The notes under the pieces are model-generated. The model was not told the DNA's origin, searched no databases, and saw only the letters and a program-made list of their open reading frames with translations. A stretch of DNA of 64,000 bases, taken from the NCBI GenBank assembly GCA_963707865.1, contig OY970175.1, positions 208,748 through 272,747 on the forward strand. The letters run 5' to 3'. Numbering within the stretch: position 1 is the first letter of the stretch; each line of letters opens with the position of its first letter. Positions 1,371 through 17,022 of this stretch are shown here, in pieces. Source of the stretch: an uncultured bacterium (GTDB taxonomy: Bacteria; Patescibacteriota; Minisyncoccia; UBA6257; 2-01-FULL-56-20). A program made the position numbers and the translations under genes.

Positions 1371-2084
1371 ATGAAAGTGGAATGGAACAAAGTGACGTGG
1401 TATTCCAAGATCATCGCGCTTATTCTTTTTGTGGCGCTTCCCTTCATTGGATTTTGTTACGGTATCCGGTACGGGATGATCCTCCAGGGATCGCGCGATA
1501 TCGCGGCGCTCACACGCGAGAACGCCGCTACGAGCGTGAATTACTACGAAAACGTCTCCGCGTGGCAGATTGGCAATAGGACGGACGCCGGATTCTCCAT
1601 TGCATATCCGATTGATTTTGATACGAACGATATTTATGCAACGACGCTGTCCACTGACTGGCGGTTTGGCGTGGACGCGTCGCAGCAGGGCGTTCTTGCA
1701 TTCACGCTTGTGATCCCACGGGCTTTTGAGCCACAGACAAACTTTGCCGATGCAAAACTCACCGTGGGATATAGCGCGAACGGCGTTGCGGTTGCGCAGT
1801 GCCTTGTGCCGGGTCCGGCATCCGGCCCTTCAAACGCAACCTCCAGTACTGTGATAAATAATATCCAGTTTACCGTGCTCCATTTCACGGATGCGGGCGC
1901 AGGCAATTATTACGAAACGACAAGTTACCGGACGGTCCAGTCAGGGAAGTGCTGGGCAGTGGAATATACCATTCATTCGTCACAGATCGCGAACTATCCG
2001 GAATCCTACGGGTTGCATTCATTTGATCGAGCGATGGTCGCGGGCGTCCTTGACCGGATCGTGGGCACTTTCGCCTTTCGGTAA
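1371..2084 (+). CDS. Membrane-anchored hypothetical protein with conserved N-terminal motif M-x-x-EWNKVTWYS followed by a TM helix
   Basis: N-terminus 'MKVEWNKVTWYSKIIALILFVALPFIGF' is paralogous to N-terminus of ORF 47075..47443(-) 'MTIEWNKVTWYSRTLTIVVFIATFFIGF'; RBS-like gagag upstream. Confidence 0.6.
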   Translation: MKVEWNKVTWYSKIIALILFVALPFIGFCYGIRYGMILQGSRDIAALTRENAATSVNYYENVSAWQIGNRTDAGFSIAYPIDFDTNDIYATTLSTDWRFGVDASQQGVLAFTLVIPRAFEPQTNFADAKLTVGYSANGVAVAQCLVPGPASGPSNATSSTVINNIQFTVLHFTDAGAGNYYETTSYRTVQSGKCWAVEYTIHSSQIANYPESYGLHSFDRAMVAGVLDRIVGTFAFR

Positions 2085-2096
2085 AACAATGCTTCT

Positions 2097-2780
2097 ATGA
2101 AAAAAATAGGGCCTGTCGCCGTAATTATAGTGTTGATACTCGTAATCGCGTTTGGGGTCGGCCAGTTTTTTGCGCTTCCGGTTCAATCTCCGGCGGTGCC
2201 CTCTTCGCCCGGGGCGAATACCTCAACGCTCGCGCTTAGAACGCAAGTAATCACCTATATGCCTGCGACGCCCGCGAGTTCAACTCCAGTACAAGAAGGT
2301 TCATGCTGGACGAGTTCCATCGCGGCGCCTTTTCGGAGGGATGCGTGGCGGTGCGCGGTGGGGAATTCCATAAGCGATCCCTGTTTCCAAATTCCCGGAG
2401 GCACGAACCTTCTTTGCGGTGCAAATCCGGCGGTCCCCGATGCCACTTCTTCATTCGTTTTGAAGCTTACGAAATCACTTCCTGCGCCGGACAATATTCA
2501 AGGTTCCGTTCCCGCGAACTGGGCGTGGCTTATAAAGCTTGCGGACGGGACAGTGTGTTCTCCCTTCACTGGTACGTTCCCCATCGCGGAGGGCGGCGTT
2601 TCTGCGAGCTACGGTTGTGCTCCGAGAATTCCTGGCGGCGAAGGAGTCCTGATTTTTAACGATTTGAACGCCAGCACGAGCAAGTGGACGGCGGAGGTGG
2701 GAACGCTCTCTACCGTTACCTCTGGCTTGCCGACCGTGGTGGGAGAAACGACGGTACCAGTGGACAAAGTATGGCAGTAA
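2097..2780 (+). CDS. Hypothetical secreted/membrane-anchored Cys-containing protein
   Basis: N-terminal TM/signal 'MKKIGPVAVIIVLILVIAFGV'; co-directional and tightly spaced with upstream genes. Confidence 0.5.
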   Translation: MKKIGPVAVIIVLILVIAFGVGQFFALPVQSPAVPSSPGANTSTLALRTQVITYMPATPASSTPVQEGSCWTSSIAAPFRRDAWRCAVGNSISDPCFQIPGGTNLLCGANPAVPDATSSFVLKLTKSLPAPDNIQGSVPANWAWLIKLADGTVCSPFTGTFPIAEGGVSASYGCAPRIPGGEGVLIFNDLNASTSKWTAEVGTLSTVTSGLPTVVGETTVPVDKVWQ

Positions 2781-2792
2781 CGCTAACACAAG

Positions 2793-2810
2793 CCCCCGCC
2801 GGAGCGGGGG
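2793..2810. terminator. GC-rich hairpin (CCCCCGC-cgga-GCGGGGG) between convergent genes
   Basis: Perfect 7-bp inverted repeat with tetraloop between stop of 2097..2780(+) and stop of giant minus-strand gene; weak U-tract. Confidence 0.35.
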
Positions 2811-2838
2811 TCTGTGTGCCGCGTTTTACGCGCGCCCG

Positions 2839-5800
2839 TTACTGTGAGCAGAGTTGATTCAGAACTGATCGGGTCGCGGAACCTACATAACCATTGCCGG
2901 AAGTGAGGCCGTTCGGTGTGAGAATCTCATCAGCAAAGATGTTCTGGAAGATGATGACCGCATTCTTCGTGGCATCACCGAAGTAGGTGCTCTCATTGCC
3001 CGGTGAGCCCGCGCCGCTCTTTGCCACTTGCGTGAGGTTGCTCATATTCAGGACCGTCTGCAGCGACTTCACGTCAGCATCGTTCGTGCCCTGGTGCAGG
3101 TTCTTGTTGAACTGGGCCGAGCAGGAAGCGTCTTTGAGCTGTTGCGTGACTAGTTTTTTCTCAAGCGCGATCAGTTGCTGCGTCAAGCTCTGGAGAAGCT
3201 GGAGGAGTGTCCCTGGATTCGTCGTTGAAGCACCCAAGACCTGGCCACCGCCATTGCCCGTTGTGATCGTCGGTGGGTAGTAGCCACCGCTGCCACCGCC
3301 ACCACCACCGGAAGTCACGATCATGCTATTGCTGCTGGAATTACCGGAGGGTGGCGTCACACTGCCAGTAGTCGTCACGGCCATTTCATCTCCCACGCTC
3401 TCCGGCGAGCCTTGCGAAACAGAGCGGAGATAGTAGGTGGTACCCGGCGTGAGACCGGAAGCCGTCACGCTGTGGTCGGTTGTCGTTGCAGTGTCTTCGC
3501 TGGTGGAGCTCGCGTAGCCGTAGTTCGGCGCGTCTCCGAGCGTCGCATGTGAGACCGTGTCGTAGATCACGCGGCTCGTCGCCGGGTGGTCGGTCGTCCA
3601 CGTAAGCGTGATGGATGTGTCAGCGGCGTTTGTAGAAGTTTCATTTGAGATTACGGGTGCAGGAGGTACGAATGTTTCCGTGATGGCGCAGCTCACCGAA
3701 CCGCCTGCTATGATGCCGCTCCCGTCGTTGCAGTTACCGCTCGTCCCTGCGGAGTAGTTCGCAAGCGACGGGGGATTCACATGGAATGGGGTGTTCGCGT
3801 CAATCGTGACCGCTGTGCCGGACGCATCACCCGCGAAGGTGGACGTCGGGCTCGGGTGGCCGGCGATCACCGTGACCATGAAGTCAGAGGAGGTCGCGCT
3901 GCCGCCCGCAGAGTTATCAACAACGAGCGAGACGTTCAGGGTGCTCGTCGGCGTTGGAGGCAGTTGTGTGTACGTTATGGTGCAGCTGTACGAACTGCTT
4001 GCAGCCACCGTGCCGCTACAATCTCCCAAGGCACCGACGGTGTAGTCGTCCACCGCCGCGCCTGCAACCAAGAACACATCACCGTCATTCAAGGTCACTG
4101 GTCCTGCATATGGAGCGGTCGTACTGTTGACTGTGACCGAAGCCCCTGCTCCGAGAGGAGTCTCCGGAACGGTCACTGTGAGGGTTGAGGTGGCAAAGGA
4201 TCCGCCGCCACCGCCACCGCCACCACCACCACCGCCACCTGACGTGCCTTGTGTGTACGTTATGGTGCAGCTGTACGAACTGCTTGCAGCCACCGTGCCG
4301 CTACAATCTCCCAAGGCACCGACGGTGTAACCGTCCACCGCCGCGCCTGCAACCAAGAACACATCACCGTCATTCAAGGTCACCGGTCCTGCATATGGAG
4401 CGGTCGTACTGTTGACTGTGACCGAAGCCCCTGCTCCGAGAGGAGTCTCCGGAACGGTCACTGTGAGGGTTGAGGTGACGATTGGGTTCTCGCTGGGTGA
4501 GATGTTCACCTCCGTGCCATCATTCGCATTTGTCTGAATAGGAACATTGTAATGACTGTCGGTCACCGAGACATCAGATCCATTCGCGATCTCGAACTGG
4601 AAGTTCTTGCCCGGAGAACCGGCCACATCTGCGAACACTTGAACACTATTAACTCCGGTGATTAACGTGGCGGGAGTTCCTGATGCATCAAAGAAAGCGG
4701 TGTTGTCTTGGGCCACTGAAGTGAGCGTCTGTCCCACCTGCGTGCCATCAACTATCAGTTTCACGTTCTGAAGATCGCCGCTACTTGCGGAGCCGACCAC
4801 GCTGAAGCGAATGCTGTTTAAGAGGACGGGGCTGTTATAGACGGAGAAGTCCCACGCGCCGACAAGGTCATTCGTAGTGTTCACATTCAATGTGTCCCCG
4901 ATGGCAGACGAGGCGATCGTCAACTCTGCAAGCGATGGGTTCTCGTATGCCGACGCGTGAACCGTCAAGATATAGCTTGAACTCGCTATATTGCTTTGCA
5001 CGTTGTTGCCATTCACCGAGACGCTGACCGTTGAGCTGCCAACGTCGCCTATTTGCGGAGTGCCGCTCACCGTTGCGGTGTCGCCGGCGGTCGTCGAGGT
5101 TGCCCATGCCGGCAAGCCCGTGATCTGCCAGGTCAAGGTATCTACTGGGTCGGTCGAGGTTGCAACGATGGTTGCACTGTACGGGGTATCTGCGGTCGCC
5201 GTGTCAGGCGTGAGACCCGAGACGATCGTGATCGTTGGCGCAGCGTTCACCGAGATTGAGAAGTCCTGAGTCGTCGGGGTACTTGCCGGGTTCGCGCCCG
5301 TTGCGACCAAGCTTACCGTCGAGGAGCCAAGATTGATTACTCCTGGCGTACCGGAGATGGTCGCCGTGTCGCCGTTCGCGACAAACGATGTGATCCATGC
5401 AGGCAGCGGCGTTGAAGTGCTCAGAGTCAGGGTATCCGCCGGATTGGTTGAGGTGGCGGTGATCGTCGTCGCGTAGAGGACGCCAACCGTCGCGTCAGGA
5501 AGCGGCGAAGTTGTGACAAACGAGATTGCCGGAGCGGTGCTCACTGTGATCGTATCGATCAGAGAACCGACACTCGCGGCGTTCGAGGTGCTCGTTGCGT
5601 TCACATTCAGAATAATCGGGTCGGTCGTGGTCGGGGTGCCTGTGACGGTGAGCGTTGTCTCTGTTGAAGTGCTCGTGAAGCCGTCAGGCAGACCGGTTAT
5701 ATCGAAGACGAAAGTGTCCGTCGCATTGCTGTCGCTTGCCGTGAAGGTTTGGCTAAACGGCACGCCTACTTGAGCCACGTCAGGCGATGAGGTCGCGATC

Positions 5801-6191
5801 GTGACTGCGGGGGCATCGCTCACCGTGAGCGGATAGGTCTGCGTTACGGTGGTTGAAGCATTCGTCTCGTTTGTCGCAGTCACCGAGACCGTTGTTGAGG
5901 TCGCGGTCGTCGGAGTGCCGGAGATCGTGAGTGTGTTACCCGCTGGGATGCTCGCTATGCCATCCGGCAAACCGCTCACCGTCCAGTCAAAGACGCCGGG
6001 GTCGGTGGAAGAGACTGTGAGGGTCGCGCCCGCGTAGGGGACACCTACCGTCGCCGTGTCAGGCACCAAACCCGTGATCGTTACATCCGCGGAGTTCACG
6101 GTGATCACATAGGTCTGTGTCGTTGAAGCGCTGAATTGGTTGGAACCAGTCACAGTTACGTCGAAGGATCCCTGTTCAGCAATTGTAGGTG
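2839..6191 (-). CDS. Giant Thr/Ser-rich cell-surface protein with Ig-like repeat modules, poly-Gly linkers and C-terminal peptidoglycan-binding (PG_binding_1-like) domain; 5' end interrupted by IS3-family insertion
   Basis: Long minus-strand ORF (track 2839..6360). C-terminus has 'DADVKSLQTVLN...YFGDATKNAVIIFQN...G..G' matching the PG_binding_1 pattern. Repetitive 'TVTGTPTT/ATSTDP' modules. The ORF-track N-terminus (6192..6360) is read-through into the IS and is not genuine. Confidence 0.7.
3283..3311. repeat. GCC/ACC trinucleotide microsatellite encoding Gly run (GGGGGGSGG) inside the surface-protein gene
   Basis: gccaccgctgccaccgccaccaccaccgg. Confidence 0.7.
3965..4478. repeat. Near-identical tandem duplication (~230 bp x2) separated by a (GCC/ACC)n poly-Gly-coding tract (4203..4240) inside the surface-protein gene
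   Basis: Segments ~3965..4193 and ~4246..4478 are almost identical at nucleotide level (e.g. 'gaccgaagcccctgctccgagaggagtctccggaacggtcactgtgagggttgaggtg' at 4136 and 4421). The protein shows module 'TVPETPLGAGASVTVNSTTAPYAGPVTLNDGDVFLVAGAAVD(G/D)YTVGALGDCSGTVAASSSYSCTITYTQ' twice, joined by GTSGGGGGGGGGGGGGS. Confidence 0.85.
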
Positions 6192-6246
6192 TGACCTGGA
6201 CCCCATATATTAGACACAAAGGTCGAAAAGCATTTACCATTGTGTC

Positions 6247-6510
6247 ATGAGCAACAAAACAGGGCATCGGGTGCCGCAAGAAGTGAAGGCGGACATCCTC
6301 CGCCGCGTGAAGGAAGAAGGCGTTTCGGTCGCCCAGGCGGCCAAGGACCACGGCCTGCACGAGTCCACCATCTACAACTGGCTGGGCACCGGAGCTGTGG
6401 GCACTCCTTCGTGGGGCGAGTTCTCACGCCTGCAGAAGCAGAACAAAGAATTGTTTGAGGTGGTGGGCGAGCTCACCGTGAAGCTCTCCCAGGCCCAAAA
6501 AAAGTATTGA
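6247..6510 (+). CDS. IS3-family transposase OrfA (HTH DNA-binding subunit)
   Basis: 'VSVAQAAKDHGLHESTIYNWL' HTH; leucine-zipper-like C-terminus; ends at the A_AAA_AAG slippery heptamer (6498..6504). Confidence 0.85.
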   Translation: MSNKTGHRVPQEVKADILRRVKEEGVSVAQAAKDHGLHESTIYNWLGTGAVGTPSWGEFSRLQKQNKELFEVVGELTVKLSQAQKKY

Positions 6511-7289
6511 GCGAGAGGAGAAACAAGTCCGCCCTGGCAAAAGCCATGGGCGTTTCGCGAGCGAGCCTCTACTACGTGGCGAAACAACACGGGAAGGACT
6601 GGGCGCTCAAGATCCGGATGGAAGAGGTGCTGCAAGAACACCCCTCGTACGGATCGCGCCGCTTGGCTATCGCCCTTGGCATGAACCGCAAACGGACAAA
6701 GCGGGTGATGCGACTGTTCGGCGTGAGACCCTACCGCAGGAGAGGCAGGAAATATCGGAAATCAAAGGCAAAACGTACGTATCCGAACCTGCTCCTCGGC
6801 GTCTGCCCCTCGTATGCGAACCATGTCTGGGCGGCGGATTTCACGGAGATGGTCCAGCACGGCAAAAAGGTGTACGTGGCGACGATCATCGATCTCTTCA
6901 CGCGGCAGACGATGGGCCTTCACGTCGGAACGCGGAAAGGCGCGGCGCTCGTGATCCATGCATTGGCGAACGCCTTGTTCCACCACCCGCGGCCCACGAT
7001 CTTCCACTCGGACAACGGGAGAGAATATGAGGCAAAAGCGTTCATCGCGCTCCTTGAGGAATGGGGCATCACGATTTCACGGTCACGGCCGGGATGCCCG
7101 TGGGAGAACGGCTACCAGGAATCGTTCTACGACAAATTCAAAGTGGATTTCGGCGATCCAAACCGGTTCAGAACCTTGGGCGAGCTCGTGGCCGCGATCT
7201 ACCGCACGGTCTGGGAATACAACCATACCCGGATCCACTCCGCGCTCAAGATGCCGCCCGCGGTGTTTGCCGAGAAAATGGCGGCATGA
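6507..7289 (+). CDS. IS3-family transposase OrfB (DDE/rve integrase catalytic domain), expressed by -1 programmed frameshift from orfA
   Basis: rve-domain motifs 'WAADFTEM...YVATIIDLFTR', 'HSDNGREY', 'PWENGYQESFY'; in -1 frame relative to orfA overlapping at A_AAA_AAG. Confidence 0.85.
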   Translation: MSERRNKSALAKAMGVSRASLYYVAKQHGKDWALKIRMEEVLQEHPSYGSRRLAIALGMNRKRTKRVMRLFGVRPYRRRGRKYRKSKAKRTYPNLLLGVCPSYANHVWAADFTEMVQHGKKVYVATIIDLFTRQTMGLHVGTRKGAALVIHALANALFHHPRPTIFHSDNGREYEAKAFIALLEEWGITISRSRPGCPWENGYQESFYDKFKVDFGDPNRFRTLGELVAAIYRTVWEYNHTRIHSALKMPPAVFAEKMAA

Positions 7290-7328
7290 GGCAACAAAAA
7301 ACGGCGCAAAAAATCGCCGAACTACTGT

Positions 7329-7640
7329 CTAAAGAAAGGGGTCCTTTACAATGGCCGTGATCTGGCCCTGGATCGTGCTGGACAGGCTGCTCTTTTCGTC
7401 CGCGCTCAGACGTACCATGTCGTTCACGCGAGTGCCGAGCGCATTGAGCGCATTGAGCCGCCGCGTGATCTCTTGGTCCGCGCGGTTTTTCGCGCGCGCG
7501 ATAAGATTGGCAAGCCTTGTCGCGGCGCTCGTTCCAATCCCGGTCCCGCTTGAAGAGGCAGTTTGCGCAAGTGCGGGAAGTGCCGCGCCTGCCGTAAGCA
7601 GCGCCGTAAGCATCATTCCTGCGATAAATTTCTTATTCAT
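7329..7640 (-). CDS. Small secreted protein with signal peptide; stop codon lies inside the IS3 right inverted repeat (possible N-terminal fragment of the IS-disrupted surface-protein gene)
   Basis: 'MNKKFIAGMMLTALLTAGAALPALAQ' Sec signal; ORF terminates at TAG 7329..7331 within the IS terminal repeat (7326..7350). Confidence 0.45.
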   Translation of the reverse strand: MNKKFIAGMMLTALLTAGAALPALAQTASSSGTGIGTSAATRLANLIARAKNRADQEITRRLNALNALGTRVNDMVRLSADEKSSLSSTIQGQITAIVKDPFL

Positions 7641-7646
7641 GTTAGT

Positions 7647-7943
7647 TTAGAGCGATTGCTGGCTGACCGGCTGATCGTTCAATCCCTGGGCAATGTTTGC
7701 GGAGTCGGAAGCAAGGCCGTTCAATTCACCGTCTATTTGCGCGAGATCTTGGTTCAGATCGGCATTGGAATTGCCGCTCGTAAGCACGGGACCGCTCGTT
7801 GTCGTCGGTGCCGTTGGTTGCGGCGCGGAGGGAGCATATGCCGTGGAAGGGCTGCTGCTTTGGCTTCCCATCCACCACCAAACGCCGCCCACGATGAGAA
7901 CGAGAACTACCACGATAATGATAATCTTTGCTGTGTTTGACAT
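7647..7943 (-). CDS. Small membrane protein (single TM, Pro/Ser/Thr-rich extracellular tail)
   Basis: 'MSNTAKIIIIVVVLVLIVGGVWWWM' TM then low-complexity region; start chosen at internal Met (ORF track gives 7647..8021). Confidence 0.45.
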   Translation of the reverse strand: MSNTAKIIIIVVVLVLIVGGVWWWMGSQSSSPSTAYAPSAPQPTAPTTTSGPVLTSGNSNADLNQDLAQIDGELNGLASDSANIAQGLNDQPVSQQSL

Positions 7944-8040
7944 TGTTATTGACCTCTTGTCCGATTGTTTATCGACCTTTGCGCACTCCTCTATTATATA
8001 TACGTTTTTCTTTGAGGTCATGTTGCGTTATAATCACAGC

Positions 8041-9408
8041 ATGGATGCCGTACAAGGCATTTTGAATGCGGCGGGCCAAGTGTTTTGGTACGCGTGGTGG
8101 ATATGGATTCCCCTCGTTTTGTTCCCGCTTTTTGAGTCCACGTGGCTTTTTTGGCGGCAGCAGGTTTTCAAGCGCGAATTGGAATTCGTGCATTTGGAGA
8201 TCCGCATCCCGCGCGAGACGAAGAGAAGCCCGCGGGCGATGGAGCAGGTGCTCATGTCTATCCATAACCTTCGCAATGCACCGGCAGACCCGGAGGAAAA
8301 ATGGTGGGACGGTGAGGTCACGCGCTGGTACGCGCTGGAGTTGGTGAGCATTGGCGGAGAGATTCATCTGTACCTACGCGCGTGGAGAAAGCAAAAGGAG
8401 ATCATCCAGGCGGCGTTCTTTGCCCATTACCCCGATGTGGAGATCGTGGAAGTGGATGATTACATTGACCGGCTGCCTGCGAGCGTGGGAGAGATGTACA
8501 AGAGCGGTTACGACCTTTGGGGATCAGAGTTTACCCTTGCGCGTGAACCCGCGTATCCCATCAGGAGCTACGTGGATTTTGAATCACCGGACGAGGAAAA
8601 GCAGTTTGATCCCATGTCCACCTTCCTTGAGGTTCTCGGCAAGGTGAAGCGCGAGGAGATTTTGTGCGTTCAGTATCTCATCGTGCCGGCGAGCATGGAT
8701 TGGAGAGACAAGTATCAGTCCTTGGTTGAATCATTGCGCACGAGGAATCAGAAGATTGGTGCGGCGGGAGGAGCGAAGCACACCCTTGGGATGGAATTCC
8801 CGCACATCCTTCCCACGTTCCCGGTGAAAACGAGCGGAGAAGGTGAGGATGGCCTGCGCGTCCTTGGAAAGGCAATCATGACGCGGACGCCGGGCGAGAC
8901 CGATGTCCTCAAGGCAGTGGAAGAGAACCTTTCCTTCCCGCCGTTTAACACCCTTATTCGATTCGTCTATTTCTCGCCGAAGGAACTGTATTTTGACACG
9001 CTGCCGCGCCGCGGATTGACCGGCGCATTCAACCAATATGCCGCCGCTAACCTTAATTGGTTTACGCGGAACGAGGAAATCAGCACGAGGGTTAAGTTTT
9101 GGGACTTTCCGTACCTCTTTCCGAATGCGCGCCTTGATCGCAGAAAGAGCCGCGTGCTTGCGGACTATCGCGCGCGGGAAATCCCGCCGGAGACCTCAAT
9201 GGGAAAGGTTATCCGCTCAAAATTTTTGCACTGGGAGCACTCCCGCATGTTTCTCTTGAGCACGCGGTCGCTTGCGACGCTTTTTCATCCGCCGACCTAC
9301 CGCGTGATCACGGCGCCGCACATCAAACGGGTGGTGAGCAGGAAGGCAGGCGCGCCGGCTGGCCTTGCGATCTACGGCGGGGAAGAGGAGATGGAGAAAT
9401 TCAAATAA
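8041..9408 (+). CDS. Hypothetical membrane-anchored protein; first gene of the T4CP-like ATPase cluster
   Basis: N-terminal TM 'FWYAWWIWIPLVLFPLF'; translationally coupled to following genes (ATG overlaps stop at 9408). Start could be 8020 or 8041; ORF track gives 7693. Confidence 0.6.
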   Translation: MDAVQGILNAAGQVFWYAWWIWIPLVLFPLFESTWLFWRQQVFKRELEFVHLEIRIPRETKRSPRAMEQVLMSIHNLRNAPADPEEKWWDGEVTRWYALELVSIGGEIHLYLRAWRKQKEIIQAAFFAHYPDVEIVEVDDYIDRLPASVGEMYKSGYDLWGSEFTLAREPAYPIRSYVDFESPDEEKQFDPMSTFLEVLGKVKREEILCVQYLIVPASMDWRDKYQSLVESLRTRNQKIGAAGGAKHTLGMEFPHILPTFPVKTSGEGEDGLRVLGKAIMTRTPGETDVLKAVEENLSFPPFNTLIRFVYFSPKELYFDTLPRRGLTGAFNQYAAANLNWFTRNEEISTRVKFWDFPYLFPNARLDRRKSRVLADYRAREIPPETSMGKVIRSKFLHWEHSRMFLLSTRSLATLFHPPTYRVITAPHIKRVVSRKAGAPAGLAIYGGEEEMEKFK

Positions 9409-9885: not shown

Positions 9886-11376
9886 ATGCCAAGAGCGGGA
9901 AAGATACAAATTATCAGATACGCGCCGCCGCCGCCCGAACTGCCAATTTACGGGCAGGTGGATCCGGCAGAGGTTTCTTTTATCGGCCGCACGAACTATG
10001 TGGCCCAGCTTGAAGAAAAAAAGTTTGTGTTCGGCATCAAGCGGCACGACCGGCGGCGCCACTTTTATATCGTCGGCAAAAGCGGCGTGGGGAAATCCAA
10101 GCTGCTTGAGCTCCTTATTCGCCAGGACATTGCATACGGCCACGGGATATGCCTTATGGATCCGCACGGCGATGTGATCGAGGCTGTCATGGATTTTGTT
10201 CCGGAGAATCGCGTGAACGACGTGGTGATCATAGACCCTACCGATATGGGCTACCCGGCTTCATTTAACCCGCTGCAGAACGTGGATCCCAGTTTTAAGC
10301 ACCAGCTTGCGCAAGGATTGATTGAAGTGATGGAGAAGCAATTCGGCGCGAACTGGACGCCGCGCCTGGAGCACGTGTTTCGCTTCACTGTACTCGCACT
10401 CCTTGATTATCCGCACGCCACGATGCGGGGGATGATCTCCATGCTTACGGACCGCAACTACCGGCAGAAGGTGGTGGAATATATAGAGGACGACATAGTC
10501 AAACGCTTCTGGGCAATCGAGTTCGCCGACTGGTCGGAAAAATTTGATACGGACGCGATTATCCCGCTTGTGAACAAACTCGGCCAGTTCCTCTCCGACC
10601 CGCTTTTGCGCAACATTTTCGGCCAGAAAGAGAACAGAATCAATCTTGAGGAATTGATGGAACAGAAAAAATTGATTTTTATTAATCTTTCCAAAGGACG
10701 CCTGGGCGAAGAAAATTCCAGTTTTTTGGGCGCGATGTTCATCACGAAAATCAAGCAGGCAGGCATGGCGCGCGCTTCCATACCCGAAAAGGACCGCCAC
10801 GATTTTTATCTTTATGTGGACGAGTTTCACAATCTTGTTACAGAAACGTTTGAGAACATTCTCTCCGAGGCGCGGAAATACGCGCTGTGTCTTACGATCA
10901 CGCATCAATACATGGGCCAGCTCTTGCCGCGCGTGCAAGCGGCGGTACTCGGGAATGTGGGGAGCATCATAATCTTCCGCGTCGGCGGCGAGGACGCGGT
11001 GCACCTGAAGCCAGAAATGGCGCCGATCTTTGACGTGAAAGACATGATCAACCTCGGTACGCAGGAATTCTTCATCAAAATGATGATTGACGGTGAAAGC
11101 TACGATCCCTTTTCCGCGGAGACGCTTAAGGTGCTGCCGCCGCCGCATCGCTCGTTCCGTAAGGAGATTCTGGAACAGTCCCGGAAGAAATATACCATCC
11201 CCGCCGACGCCGCGAAGAAGCTTATTCAAGAAGAGGAGGCCACCATTCTCCGCAGCGCCCAGGAAAAAGCTATTATTGAAGGCAAGGCGAGGGGCAGCGG
11301 GGCGGGCACGGCGGGCGCCGGCGGCGGAGCTAAAGAAGAAGCGGCCGTAGACAAGACCCCCGAGCCTTTGATATAA
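9886..11376 (+). CDS. TraD/VirD4/TrwB-like (type IV secretion coupling-protein family / HerA-FtsK superfamily) P-loop ATPase
   Basis: Walker A 'GKSGVGKS', 'MDPHGD', Walker B 'LYVDEFHNL', 'ITHQYMGQL'; low-complexity Gly/Ala C-terminal tail. Confidence 0.8.
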   Translation: MPRAGKIQIIRYAPPPPELPIYGQVDPAEVSFIGRTNYVAQLEEKKFVFGIKRHDRRRHFYIVGKSGVGKSKLLELLIRQDIAYGHGICLMDPHGDVIEAVMDFVPENRVNDVVIIDPTDMGYPASFNPLQNVDPSFKHQLAQGLIEVMEKQFGANWTPRLEHVFRFTVLALLDYPHATMRGMISMLTDRNYRQKVVEYIEDDIVKRFWAIEFADWSEKFDTDAIIPLVNKLGQFLSDPLLRNIFGQKENRINLEELMEQKKLIFINLSKGRLGEENSSFLGAMFITKIKQAGMARASIPEKDRHDFYLYVDEFHNLVTETFENILSEARKYALCLTITHQYMGQLLPRVQAAVLGNVGSIIIFRVGGEDAVHLKPEMAPIFDVKDMINLGTQEFFIKMMIDGESYDPFSAETLKVLPPPHRSFRKEILEQSRKKYTIPADAAKKLIQEEEATILRSAQEKAIIEGKARGSGAGTAGAGGGAKEEAAVDKTPEPLI

Positions 11377-15033: not shown

Positions 15034-17022
15034 ATGGAGGAAGTTCCGGATAAAAACGTAATATATTTCGCACGAACCGATTTTCGCAATCAAGATCGGC
15101 TTTTTGGTATTAAGCGGAGCGACCGGCGCCAGCATATGTATGTCATAGGAAAAACCGGTACCGGCAAAAGCGCGCTCCTCAACAATATGGCCGTGCAGGA
15201 TATCGCGAACGGCGAGGGGCTTTGCGTGGTGGACCCGCATGGTGAGCTCGTGGAGGGGCTTATGAAAAGGATCCCGGAGGAACGGATGAAGGATGTCATC
15301 TATTTCAATCCGGCAGATACGGATTTTCACATCGGCTTCAACGTGCTGGAGCTGCCCGACCCAAAGTACAAGCACCTTGTGGCATCGGGACTCATGGGAA
15401 TTTTCACAAAGATTTGGGCGGGCGTCTGGTCGCCGCGCATGGAATACATTTTGAATAATTGCGTGCTCGCGCTCTTGGATACTCCGGGTTCCACGCTCCT
15501 CGGCATCCCTCGGCTTCTGACCGACAAAGATTACCGGCAGAAGATCATCGCGAACATAAAAGACCCCGTCGTGAAGGCGTTTTGGATCCACGAATTTGAA
15601 GGGTGGCAGGACCGGTTCAGGAACGAGGCCATCGCGCCGATACAGAACAAGGTGGGCCAATTCCTTTCCACCGCGCTTATCCGCAACATCGTCGGCCAAT
15701 CAAAGAGTACTGTGGACATTTTTGACGTGATGAACGAGGGAAAAATCTTCCTTGTGAATGTTTCCAAGGGTCGCATCGGGGAGGACAATTCTGCGCTCCT
15801 GGGCGCGATGCTTATCACGAAGATCCAGCTTTCGGCAATGGAGCGCGTGCGCGTCCCCGAGGACGAACGTGTGGACTTTTATCTTTATGTGGACGAGTTC
15901 CAGAACTTCGCCACGGATTCCTTCGCGGGCATCCTTTCCGAAGCGCGGAAGTACCGCCTGGATCTTATTCTCGCGCACCAATATATCGGCCAGCTCATCA
16001 CCGACACTTCGACGAGGGTGCGCGACGCGATCTTTGGTAACGTGGGAACAATGGTCACGTTCCGGGTGGGTGCTACCGATGCGGAGTTCCTGGAGAACGA
16101 GTTCACGCCTGAGTTCGTGATAGAAGACATCGTAAATCTTCCGAATTATTCCATCTATCTGAAGCTTATGGTGGACGGCGTGACGGCGCGCCCATTTTCC
16201 GCGGCCACGCTCCCCCCGCTTCAGGTGAAAACTTCCGCGATGGTAGAATCCGAGATCATCAGGATGTCACAGAAGCGCTACGCCCGGCCGCGCGAGGTCG
16301 TAGAGGAAGAGATCAATCGCTGGAGCGGCGTGATGGGACCGCCTGCGGCTACCAGTGCGGAAAAGAAAGGCGGAGATACGACGAGGTACGAAGCCGTATG
16401 TTCTTCATGCGGCAAGATGACGACGTTGCCGTTCGAGCCGACGCCGGGCCGGCCGGTGTATTGCCGCGATTGTTTGAAGAAAATAGAAGCAGGCGAACTT
16501 CAACCGATACGGGTGCCGCGCGCGTCAGTCGTACGCACGAGACCGCAGAAAAAATACGCAGATGATTTGAGTTATCTCGGCATTGAGTTCCCGGAGCAGG
16601 GAGCGCCGGCCGAGCTGCAGCCGGCGACGAGAAGGGCGCCGGTACCGGTGCGTCCCATGGGTTCCATGGATGGAAGGGGAGGGGCAGGAGCACCAATTTC
16701 CGGTTACGGGCCAAAAGCGGCCATGCCAACCTCTGTACCGGCCGCTGCGCCAGCCGCGCCGCCATCCGCCGAGCCGGCGGGGCGGACGCTTTCGCTATCT
16801 GAATTGAAATCGGCGGATCGGAGACCGAAGCTGAAGAAATCGCAACAACACGAGGAGATCAACATTTCCGAACTTCGGGAGGCAATCAAGGCATCATTGA
16901 GCGCAGATATCGGTGCGGGCTCCGCGCAGGCCGCCGAGGCGGAAAAAAGCGTCAGCGCTGACACCGATAAACGGGATGGCGAAGAAGACGGCAGCGACGA
17001 GGAGCGTGTGCGCCGCATTTGA
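15034..17022 (+). CDS. TraD/VirD4-like P-loop ATPase paralog with C-terminal CxxC-x17-CxxC zinc ribbon and long low-complexity acidic/Ala-Pro tail
   Basis: Walker A 'GKTGTGKS', 'VDPHGE', Walker B 'LYVDEFQNF', 'AHQYIGQL'; 'CSSCGKMTTLPFEPTPGRPVYCRDC'. Confidence 0.8.
   Translation: MEEVPDKNVIYFARTDFRNQDRLFGIKRSDRRQHMYVIGKTGTGKSALLNNMAVQDIANGEGLCVVDPHGELVEGLMKRIPEERMKDVIYFNPADTDFHIGFNVLELPDPKYKHLVASGLMGIFTKIWAGVWSPRMEYILNNCVLALLDTPGSTLLGIPRLLTDKDYRQKIIANIKDPVVKAFWIHEFEGWQDRFRNEAIAPIQNKVGQFLSTALIRNIVGQSKSTVDIFDVMNEGKIFLVNVSKGRIGEDNSALLGAMLITKIQLSAMERVRVPEDERVDFYLYVDEFQNFATDSFAGILSEARKYRLDLILAHQYIGQLITDTSTRVRDAIFGNVGTMVTFRVGATDAEFLENEFTPEFVIEDIVNLPNYSIYLKLMVDGVTARPFSAATLPPLQVKTSAMVESEIIRMSQKRYARPREVVEEEINRWSGVMGPPAATSAEKKGGDTTRYEAVCSSCGKMTTLPFEPTPGRPVYCRDCLKKIEAGELQPIRVPRASVVRTRPQKKYADDLSYLGIEFPEQGAPAELQPATRRAPVPVRPMGSMDGRGGAGAPISGYGPKAAMPTSVPAAAPAAPPSAEPAGRTLSLSELKSADRRPKLKKSQQHEEINISELREAIKASLSADIGAGSAQAAEAEKSVSADTDKRDGEEDGSDEERVRRI

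What the first reader, a model, noticed from the sequence alone, without database searches (positions are those of the whole stretch)
2839..7640. IS3-family element inserted into the 5' region of a giant cell-surface protein gene
The minus-strand surface-protein ORF has no genuine N-terminus: its first ~55 codons in the ORF track are read-through into the IS left end. On the far side of the IS, a minus-strand ORF (7640→7329) encodes a Sec signal peptide plus ~75 aa and runs into a stop codon located inside the IS right inverted repeat. The simplest reading is one ancestral gene (signal peptide ... Ig-like repeats ... PG-binding C-terminus) split by the IS. The IS itself is canonical: orfA and orfB, an A_AAA_AAG -1 frameshift heptamer, and TG...CA imperfect inverted repeats.
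Basis: partly seen in the sequence, partly recalled or inferred. Interest (0 to 1): 0.55.

Follow-up and report, generated by a model that had tools for sequence, protein, structure and literature searches.

The report
Insertion sequence between two truncated genes
A real, intact IS3-family insertion sequence lies between the front third of a small conserved secreted-protein gene and the back part of an unrelated giant surface-protein gene, so it marks an ordinary IS-associated deletion and not one gene split in two.

Summary
A 1159-bp IS3-family element occupies 6192..7350. It has orfA, orfB, an A_AAA_AAG -1 frameshift site, a DDE triad and imperfect TG...CA inverted repeats. Both neighbouring minus-strand ORFs run into it.

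The interpretation of one ancestral gene split by the IS does not hold.
- The signal-peptide ORF (7640->7351) is the first 97 codons of a conserved stand-alone gene. Its 267 collected homologues have a median length of 277 aa and a maximum of 415 aa. In 33 related loci the gene sits directly after the same upstream partner gene.
- The remaining ~170 codons of that gene are absent from the whole window.
- The giant ORF's own sequence starts at about residue 62 of a ~95-aa Ig-like repeat. It aligns from residue 1275 of its best homologue (1948 aa).
- There is no target-site duplication (GTG|IS|ATG). Directly joined flanks are out of frame.
- Relatives keep the same neighbours but have no giant gene between them.

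The best reading is an IS insertion plus an adjacent deletion, or recombination between two IS copies. This removed the 3' part of the small gene and the 5' part of the giant gene, leaving both as pseudogenes. This is ordinary genome decay in a probable Paceibacterota genome and is of low interest.

The parts
6192..7350 (+). IS3-family insertion sequence, 1159 bp, apparently intact
   Evidence: The ends were fixed by homology to L001 and to 81 multi-copy relatives. Pfam and NCBIfam hits support the family.
6192..6216 (+). Left terminal inverted repeat (TGACCTGGACCCCATATATTAGACA)
   Evidence: It matches the right repeat at 17 of 25 positions. The core pair was found (I6). The sequence is unique in the window.
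7326..7350 (+). Right terminal inverted repeat, ending ...TTTACA
6247..6510 (+). orfA, 87 aa, helix-turn-helix
   Evidence: HTH_Tnp_1 E=5.5e-9.
6498..6504 (+). A_AAA_AAG programmed -1 frameshift heptamer. Slippage here gives a 347-aa OrfAB fusion.
   Evidence: The heptamer is in register with the orfA codons, and orfB is in the -1 frame. The same motif sits at the same place in the L001 copy.
6507..7289 (+). orfB, DDE (rve) catalytic domain. The triad is D198, D256 and E292 in OrfAB numbering.
   Evidence: rve E=3.7e-22. transpos_IS3 scores 205.6 bits against a cut-off of 160.
7351..7640 (-). 5' remnant (96 2/3 codons: signal peptide plus the first helices) of a conserved ~270-290 aa secreted helical protein gene. 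The IS truncates it.
   Evidence: Homologues continue for about 170 more residues, and that part has no match anywhere in the window.
7329..7350 (-). IS-encoded tail (..KDPFL) and TAG stop that terminate the truncated small ORF
2839..6191 (-). 3' remnant (about 1117 codons plus stop) of a giant surface-protein gene. It contains Ig-like He_PIG-type repeats, an fn3/PAP-N-like domain and a C-terminal PG_binding_1-like domain. It has no start codon or signal peptide of its own.
   Evidence: It starts at about residue 62 of a 95-aa repeat and aligns from residue 1275 of P0003.
6192..6360 (-). Spurious ORF extension: antisense read-through of the giant frame into the IS left end (about 56 codons). 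It is not a native N-terminus.
   Evidence: This stretch lies inside the IS as delimited.
7647..8021 (-). Upstream partner gene (up124; small membrane-anchored protein). It directly precedes the small helical-protein gene in 33 of the related loci.
2097..2780 (+). Convergent neighbour p227. With p237 (1371-2084) and the ABC permease p248 (617-1363), it flanks the complete small gene in relatives.
2793..2810 (.). G+C-rich hairpin between the convergent stop codons of p227 and the giant gene. It is a likely bidirectional terminator.

Best explanation
An intact IS3-family insertion sequence (6192-7350) sits at a deletion junction between two different, co-oriented genes.

- On one side is the first 97 codons of a conserved ~270-290 aa secreted helical protein gene.
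- On the other side is the last ~1117 codons of a lineage-specific giant Ig-repeat / peptidoglycan-binding surface-protein gene.

Inferred history: the giant gene lay in the variable slot between the small gene and the convergent p227-p237-ABC cluster. The IS inserted into one of the two genes. Then either an IS-promoted adjacent deletion or homologous recombination with a second, directly oriented copy in the other gene removed what lay between. The lost DNA comprised about 170 codons of the small gene, the intergenic region, and the giant gene's promoter, signal peptide and an unknown number of N-terminal repeats.

Both genes are now pseudogenes. The small one encodes a 103-aa stub ending in IS sequence. 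The giant one has no native start or export signal.

Shown: the IS anatomy, truncation of two unrelated genes, absence of a TSD, and synteny in relatives. Inferred: the ancestral adjacency of the two genes and the exact deletion mechanism.
For: 1. IS identity and exact ends.
2. The N-terminal fragment belongs to a small-protein family. An exhaustive search gave 219 hits at E<=0.001, almost all 250-295 aa, all matching at their N-terminal ~100 aa. A profile search gave 452 hits, and the top 120 are all 226-325 aa. A pooled blastp gave 267 members with a median of 277 aa and a maximum of 415 aa.
3. In alignment A1 the fragment ends at ...QGQITAI, where every homologue continues MNxLQAQI...SSLKxDIQSITKSYRIF....
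4. The missing ~170 aa have no tblastn match anywhere in the 64-kb window.
5. The giant ORF's native sequence begins at the TPT of a GTP motif, about residue 62 of a ~95-aa repeat. It aligns from residue 1275 of the 1948-aa best homologue P0003.
6. The flanks read GTG|IS|ATG, so there is no TSD. Among relatives of this IS, 7 of 81 copies have a direct repeat of 3 bp or more, mostly exactly 3 bp.
7. Native flank lengths are 290 + 3353 nt = 3643 nt, which leaves remainder 1 when divided by 3. A direct join, or a join after removing 3 bp, is therefore out of frame.
8. Synteny: 33 loci have up124 directly followed by a complete small gene. Eight loci have the small gene followed by the convergent p227/p237/p248 cluster, and in six of these the two stop codons are only 73-118 bp apart. 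No giant-protein hit occurs in any of the 55 metagenome loci.
9. The closest relative, L132 (p248 93% identical), has about 6 kb of other genes in the same interval. This shows the interval is a variable slot.
10. IS3-family (IS150) adjacent deletions that lack TSDs are documented experimentally (PMC11708052).
Against: - No genome close enough to show the pre-deletion state (small gene followed by an intact giant gene) was found, so the ancestral adjacency is inferred.
- Absence of a TSD is only weak evidence by itself, because most relatives' copies (66 of 81) also lack one.
- Only one IS copy is visible in the window, so the two-copy recombination route cannot be checked.
- The 1117-codon remnant is still a perfectly open frame. 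This requires either a recent event or some residual selection.
Confidence: 0.72

Rival explanations
1. One reading: one ancestral gene (signal peptide ... Ig repeats ... PG-binding C-terminus) was split by a simple IS insertion.
For: - Both ORFs are on the minus strand, and both run into the IS.
- Removing the IS plus 4 bp gives one open frame.
- The giant gene needs a signal peptide, and the upstream fragment has one.
Against: - One third of all possible excisions give an open frame.
- There is no 4-bp or other duplication at the true ends.
- All 267 collected homologues of the fragment are small proteins (median 277 aa, maximum 415 aa), and the fragment stops one third of the way through them.
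- The giant ORF starts two thirds of the way into an Ig-like repeat.
- Relatives have a complete small gene at this exact syntenic position and no giant gene.
Confidence: 0.03
2. Assembly collapse: the real genome has two directly oriented IS copies, one in the small gene and one in the giant gene. The assembler merged them and dropped the intervening segment, so the deletion exists only in silico.
For: - The source appears to be a metagenome-derived contig of 898,885 bp.
- A collapsed repeat would also give mismatched flanks and no TSD.
- An independent Logan assembly of run ERR10755942 yields only a ~1-kb contig at this locus.
Against: - Nothing in the window shows a second copy.
- No fragment of the missing small-gene 3' part from the source contig appeared in the family search (top 120 only).
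- Even if this model is true, two separate genes are interrupted, so the one-gene model still fails.
Confidence: 0.1
3. Imported fragment: the IS together with adjacent DNA (the 3' part of a giant gene from elsewhere or from another strain) replaced the 3' part of the small gene by IS-mediated or illegitimate recombination. In this model the giant gene was never intact at this locus.
For: - Six of the eight syntenic relatives that carry the p227 cluster have no room for any gene between the small gene and p227.
- The segment has somewhat higher G+C (56-61% against 53-55% in the flanks).
- Relatives of the IS occur in other phyla, so the IS has moved horizontally.
Against: - There is no second IS end or solo inverted repeat at the distal boundary near 2839.
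- The giant gene's stop is followed by a normal hairpin, and then by p227's stop, like a native convergent pair.
- The closest relative, L132, shows that this interval naturally holds variable genes, including one with a domain 46% identical to giant residues 739-844.
- The higher G+C can be explained by the Thr/Ala/Gly-rich composition of the protein.
Confidence: 0.12

Closest known systems
IS3-family insertion sequences (IS911, IS150, IS2 as studied models)
   Same: - orfA (HTH) and orfB (DDE/rve) lie in the 0 and -1 frames, with an A_AAA_AAG slippery heptamer.
- There is a DD(35)E-type triad.
- The terminal inverted repeats are imperfect, about 25 bp long, and end TG...CA.
- NCBIfam transpos_IS3 scores above its cut-off.
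   Different: - At 1159 bp it is short for the family (my recollection is that most members are about 1.2-1.55 kb; this was not checked).
- OrfB is at most 36% identical to annotated IS3 transposases in the plasmid collection. The closest named one is ISMesi1-like at 33.5%.
- This copy has no TSD.
IS150 'IS-del' events (adjacent deletions) in the E. coli long-term evolution experiment (PMC11708052)
   Same: An IS3-family element sits at a deletion junction with no target-site duplication, and the flanking genes are truncated.
   Different: In that study the earlier insertion and the later deletion were observed over time. Here only the end state is seen, in an uncultured CPR-type genome, so the order of events and the size of the deletion are inferred.
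Multi-copy relatives of this IS in Terriglobia / Candidatus Acidiferrales MAGs, and one copy in a Candidatus Saccharibacteria MAG (L001-L073)
   Same: OrfB is 73-77% identical and the DNA 72-75% identical. The architecture and the terminal sequences are the same (TG[A/C]CC[T/C]GGAC...TTTAGACA).
   Different: Those copies are 1145 bp long (1166 bp in L001). The Terriglobia copy that was checked lacks an exact AAAAAAG heptamer. They occur in dozens of copies per genome.
Giant Ig-repeat surface proteins with He_PIG repeats and a PG_binding_1-like domain (for example P0003, 1948 aa)
   Same: The He_PIG-type repeats are 44% identical, and the C-terminal ~130 aa are 66% identical in the tblastn match to P0003's locus.
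   Different: The window's copy lacks everything equivalent to P0003 residues 1-1274, including the signal peptide. P0003 sits in an unrelated genomic context.

Membership tests
IS3 family insertion sequence | Two consecutive ORFs: orfA with an HTH, and orfB with a DDE/rve domain in the -1 frame | tested here: met
   - orfA 6247-6510 hits HTH_Tnp_1 (E=5.5e-9).
- orfB 6507-7289 hits rve (E=3.7e-22).
- The start coordinates leave remainders 1 and 0 on division by 3, so orfB is in the -1 frame.
IS3 family insertion sequence | Programmed -1 frameshift motif (A AAA AAG type) in the orfA/orfB overlap, producing OrfAB | tested here: met
   The heptamer at 6498-6504 is in register with the orfA codons. 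The fusion reads through as a 347-aa protein. The motif is conserved in L001. Frameshifting itself was not tested.
IS3 family insertion sequence | Catalytic DDE triad with about 35 residues between the second D and E | tested here: met
   The motifs AADFT, HSDNG and QESFY give D198, D256 and E292. The D-E spacing is 36.
IS3 family insertion sequence | Curated family model scored above its cut-off | tested here: met
   NCBIfam NF033516 transpos_IS3 scores 205.6 bits against a cut-off of 160 on OrfB alone.
IS3 family insertion sequence | Imperfect terminal inverted repeats ending 5'-TG...CA-3' | tested here: met
   The repeats match at 17 of 25 positions. The TG at 6192 and the CA at 7350 are confirmed by 81 related copies.
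IS3 family insertion sequence | Short (typically 3-4 bp) target-site duplication flanking the copy | tested here: not met
   The flanks are ...GTAGGTG | IS | ATGGCCG..., and no direct repeat of 2-5 bp is present. This is a property of this copy's history and does not disqualify the element. Only 7 of 81 related copies keep a direct repeat of 3 bp or more.
   The upstream flank is the N-terminal third of a 260-305 aa protein family. The downstream flank starts at about residue 62 of an Ig-like repeat.
   The IS is 1159 bp, so frame closure requires removal of 1 or 4 extra bases. No such duplication exists. Removing 0, 2, 3 or 5 bp leaves the flanks out of frame. One third of arbitrary excisions give an open frame.
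   Relatives have a complete stand-alone small gene between up124 and p227, and no giant gene.
He_PIG (PF05345) Ig-like repeat surface protein | Pfam He_PIG match at gathering score | tested here: inconclusive
   He_PIG scores E=7e-4 and 20.4 bits against a cut-off of 24. However, most homologues carry PF05345, and the internal repeats align with one another.
PG_binding_1 (PF01471) peptidoglycan-binding domain | Pfam match at gathering score in the C-terminal ~100 aa | tested here: inconclusive
   The match scores 21.0 bits against a cut-off of 23, E=3.9e-4. Homologues P0038, P0058 and P0086 carry PF01471.
Small secreted helical protein family of Paceibacterota (no Pfam model) | Full-length ~260-305 aa protein: signal peptide plus a conserved RADQEITRR...SSLKxDIQSITKSYRIF...PDNG core | tested here: not met
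   Only residues 1-97 are present, 41-63% identical to family members. The conserved C-terminal two thirds are absent from the window. The gene is therefore a truncated member, that is, a pseudogene.

The most novel reading that the evidence does not exclude
The IS may record recent DNA exchange between ultra-small CPR bacteria (this probable Paceibacterota genome and a Saccharibacteria MAG) and soil or peat Acidobacteriota (Terriglobia / Acidiferrales). Those genomes carry dozens of copies whose transposase is 73-77% identical. If this reflects physical association, the IS would be a marker pointing to Acidobacteriota as hosts of these episymbionts. Loss of a giant surface adhesin-like protein and a conserved secreted protein could then be a host-range or attachment change in this strain.
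Probability: 0.08. Interest if true: 0.45.

Novelty: new member of a known kind. Interest (0 to 1): 0.15.

Why it matters
Mostly it matters for annotation. The 1173-aa ORF and the 103-aa ORF should both be labelled pseudogene remnants of two different genes. They should not be merged into one "interrupted surface protein".

The locus also gives a clean natural example, in a streamlined CPR-type genome, of an IS3-family element at a TSD-less deletion junction. It shows that the interval next to a conserved secreted-protein gene pair is a variable slot for large surface proteins. None of this changes current understanding of insertion sequences or of these organisms.

Tried and rejected
- In-silico excision over all boundaries 6170-6214 x 7325-7374: 673 combinations give an open frame, which is one third of the total. 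The test has no discriminating power.
- Exact-protein look-ups found nothing on record for orfA, the 103-aa and 94-aa forms of the fragment, the two forms of up124, and p248. The source genome is not in the gene-position index, so other IS copies and IS-free alleles could not be sought that way.
- The word-indexed protein search with the 97-aa fragment returned only the self hit, P0001. The exhaustive HMMER search was needed to find relatives.
- blastn of the IS against the plasmid collection gave no match.
- The genome-contig scan did not return the source genome, so other copies in the same genome remain unknown.
- The context of the best giant-protein homologue, P0003, is unrelated and gave no synteny information.
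- A search for a second IS end or solo inverted repeat in the window found none.
- An inversion or translocation between distant IS copies was rejected. Such an event would leave the small gene's 3' part next to p227, or would break the up124...p227 synteny, and neither is seen.
- The G+C profile is only mildly elevated across the giant gene and the IS, so it is not decisive.


Full report
**Observation.**
- On the plus strand, orfA (6247-6510, 87 aa) hits the transposase HTH family HTH_Tnp_1.
- orfB (6507-7289, 260 aa from its first TTG) hits the rve integrase core. It also scores 205.6 bits against NCBIfam transpos_IS3, whose cut-off is 160.
- orfB lies in the -1 frame relative to orfA.
- The heptamer A_AAA_AAG sits at 6498-6504, in register with the orfA codons. 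Slippage there gives a 347-aa OrfAB with D198, D256 and E292.
- The window holds a single copy of the element.

**Exact ends of the IS.**
- A scan of one genome per species found no identical copy. It did find a 75%-identical copy in a Candidatus Saccharibacteria MAG (L001), whose similarity to the window runs exactly over 6191-7350.
- It also found dozens of copies in Terriglobia / Candidatus Acidiferrales MAGs, 72-73% identical in DNA and 73-75% in OrfB.
- In 81 distinct full copies the flanking DNA diverges immediately outside TG...CA.
Its terminal repeats match at 17 of 25 positions.
- The giant ORF's listed start (6360) and its first ~56 codons lie inside the IS. The signal-peptide ORF ends at a TAG (7331-7329) inside the right repeat.

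**The frame test.**
- I tried every excision with a left boundary at 6170-6214 and a right boundary at 7325-7374. One third of them give a single open frame, so an open frame is expected by chance.
- With the true ends the native flanks are 290 nt (7640-7351) and 3353 nt (6191-2839), 3643 nt in total. That leaves remainder 1 on division by 3.
- The frames therefore join only if 1 or 4 further bases are removed.
- The flanks read ...GTAGGTG|IS|ATGGCCG... and carry no duplication of any length from 2 to 5 bp.
- Among the related copies, 7 of 81 have a direct repeat of 3 bp or more. About 1.3 would be expected by chance, and six of the seven are exactly 3 bp. The usual duplication for this element is therefore probably 3 bp, which would not close the frame here.

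**What the upstream fragment is.**
- The word-indexed search found only the fragment's own record, on an 898,885-bp contig.
- An exhaustive HMMER search of 1.84 billion representative proteins gave 219 hits at E<=0.001. Almost all are 250-295 aa, and each matches the fragment with its own N-terminal ~100 residues.
- In the alignment, the fragment (signal peptide, then ...RADQEITRRLNALNALGTRVNDMVRLSADEKSSLSSTIQGQITAI) stops where every homologue continues with MNxLQAQI...SSLKxDIQSITKSYRIFxLVIPQG... for about another 170 residues.
- A profile search with 16 full-length relatives plus the window's own fragment found 452 members. The top 120 are all 226-325 aa, and some are labelled Candidatus Paceibacterota.
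- Across the 267 pooled members that match the fragment, the median length is 277 aa and the maximum is 415 aa. None is a giant protein.
- tblastn with 12 family members finds only 7640-7341 in the window. The missing two thirds are nowhere else in the 64 kb.
- The family has no Pfam or NCBIfam model.

**What the giant ORF is.**
- Its native part starts TPTIAEQGSFDVTVTGSN.... This aligns with the GTPT...V.VTAT... segment that closes each of the four following ~95-aa repeats. The gene therefore begins at about residue 62 of a repeat.
- BLASTP aligns residue 1 of the remnant with residue 1275 of the best homologue, P0003. That 1948-aa protein has a signal peptide, more repeats and a polysaccharide-deacetylase domain upstream.
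- The Ig-like (He_PIG) and PG_binding_1 assignments are just below Pfam's cut-offs here, but homologues support them.
- A junction that fused a helical domain cut at one third to the last third of an Ig repeat is not a plausible native protein.

**Synteny.**
- A metagenome scan with the family alignment returned 55 loci.
- Wherever the ORF is complete, it is 191-305 aa, and mostly 260-305 aa.
- In 33 loci a homologue of the window's upstream gene (7647-8021) directly precedes it.
- In 8 loci it is followed by the convergent p227-p237-ABC-permease cluster that lies at 617-2780 in the window. In six of these, only 73-118 bp separate the two stop codons.
- No locus has any match to the giant protein, and the downstream genes differ widely between loci.
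- The closest relative is L132, whose ABC permease is 93% identical. It has the partner gene, a complete 257-aa small gene, about 6 kb of other genes, and then the p227 cluster. One stretch in that 6 kb is 46% identical to residues 739-844 of the giant protein.
- The interval between the small gene and p227 is therefore a variable slot. The window's giant gene is most simply its lineage-specific occupant.

**Mechanism.**
- The IS sits exactly between two truncated, unrelated, co-oriented genes and has no TSD. Both outer neighbours keep their ancestral positions. This is the signature of a deletion with the IS at its junction.
- It could have arisen in two ways. One is an insertion followed by an IS-promoted adjacent deletion. 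The other is recombination between two directly oriented copies, one in each gene.
- IS150, also an IS3-family element, produced 14 such TSD-less deletion junctions in three lines of the E. coli long-term evolution experiment (PMC11708052).
- An inversion or translocation between distant copies would leave the small gene's 3' part beside p227 or would break the synteny. Neither is seen.
- The lost DNA was at least ~0.5 kb of the small gene, plus the intergenic region, plus the giant gene's promoter, signal peptide and at least 60 codons. If the gene resembled P0003, the loss would run to several kb.
- The remnant is still one open frame of 1117 codons, and the IS is intact. This suggests a recent event.
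- Two rivals cannot be excluded without reads. One is that an assembler collapsed two real IS copies. The other is that the giant-gene fragment arrived together with the IS. Under either rival, the one-gene reading still fails.

**Verdict.** The IS identification is right, including its ends. The claim that one gene was split is not supported. This is a new, unnamed member of the IS3 family, at most 36% identical to annotated transposases in the plasmid collection. It sits at an ordinary IS-associated deletion that inactivated two genes in a probable Paceibacterota (CPR) genome. Interest is low.

Noticed in passing
L002-L073 (Terriglobia / Candidatus Acidiferrales MAGs) and L001 (Candidatus Saccharibacteria MAG): Relatives of this IS are 73-77% identical in OrfB and 72-75% identical in DNA, and they occur in other phyla. 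Two or three Acidobacteriota MAGs carry dozens of 1145-bp copies. 66 of the 81 distinct copies have no flanking direct repeat at all, and only 7 have one of 3 bp or more. That fraction of copies without a TSD is unusually high.
   Followed up: partly
window 7647-8021 and 7351-7640 (minus strand); L075-L126: The small membrane-anchored protein (up124) and the ~270-aa secreted helical protein form a tightly conserved gene pair. The pair is seen in 33 of 55 loci, and the helical protein has more than 450 family members. Neither protein has a Pfam or NCBIfam model. Their function is unknown.
   Followed up: partly
window 3964-4477: There is a 285-bp (95-codon) in-frame tandem duplication inside the giant gene remnant: 1.8 copies with 98% matches. 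A run of 13 glycine codons lies at about 4202-4239. This points to recent repeat expansion in the gene before or around its truncation.
   Followed up: no
window 9886-11376 and 15034-17022: Two genes encode TrwB/VirD4-like type IV coupling-protein ATPases (TrwB_AAD_bind, T4SS-DNA_transf). The second also has a treble-clef zinc finger. The region next to the finding looks like a type IV secretion or DNA-transfer cluster.
   Followed up: no
L132:15531-15857 (minus strand); also p248 at L132:18203-18948: The variable slot of the closest relative holds a stretch 46% identical to residues 739-844 of the giant protein, on the opposite strand. The p248 homologue there is split into two frames, which suggests indel errors in that long-read assembly.
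   Followed up: no
window 7693-9408 (+) against 7647-8021 (-): The 571-aa plus-strand ORF overlaps the conserved minus-strand up124 gene by about 330 bp. The homology in L075 starts at residue 116, so its real start is probably near 8030-8040. It would then be divergent from up124.
   Followed up: no
L133 (Logan assembly of run ERR10755942) = window 1982-2962: An independent assembly of a public sequencing run contains a contig 100% identical to the junction between p227 and the 3' end of the giant gene. The same strain is therefore present in that run, and its reads could test the IS junctions.
   Followed up: partly
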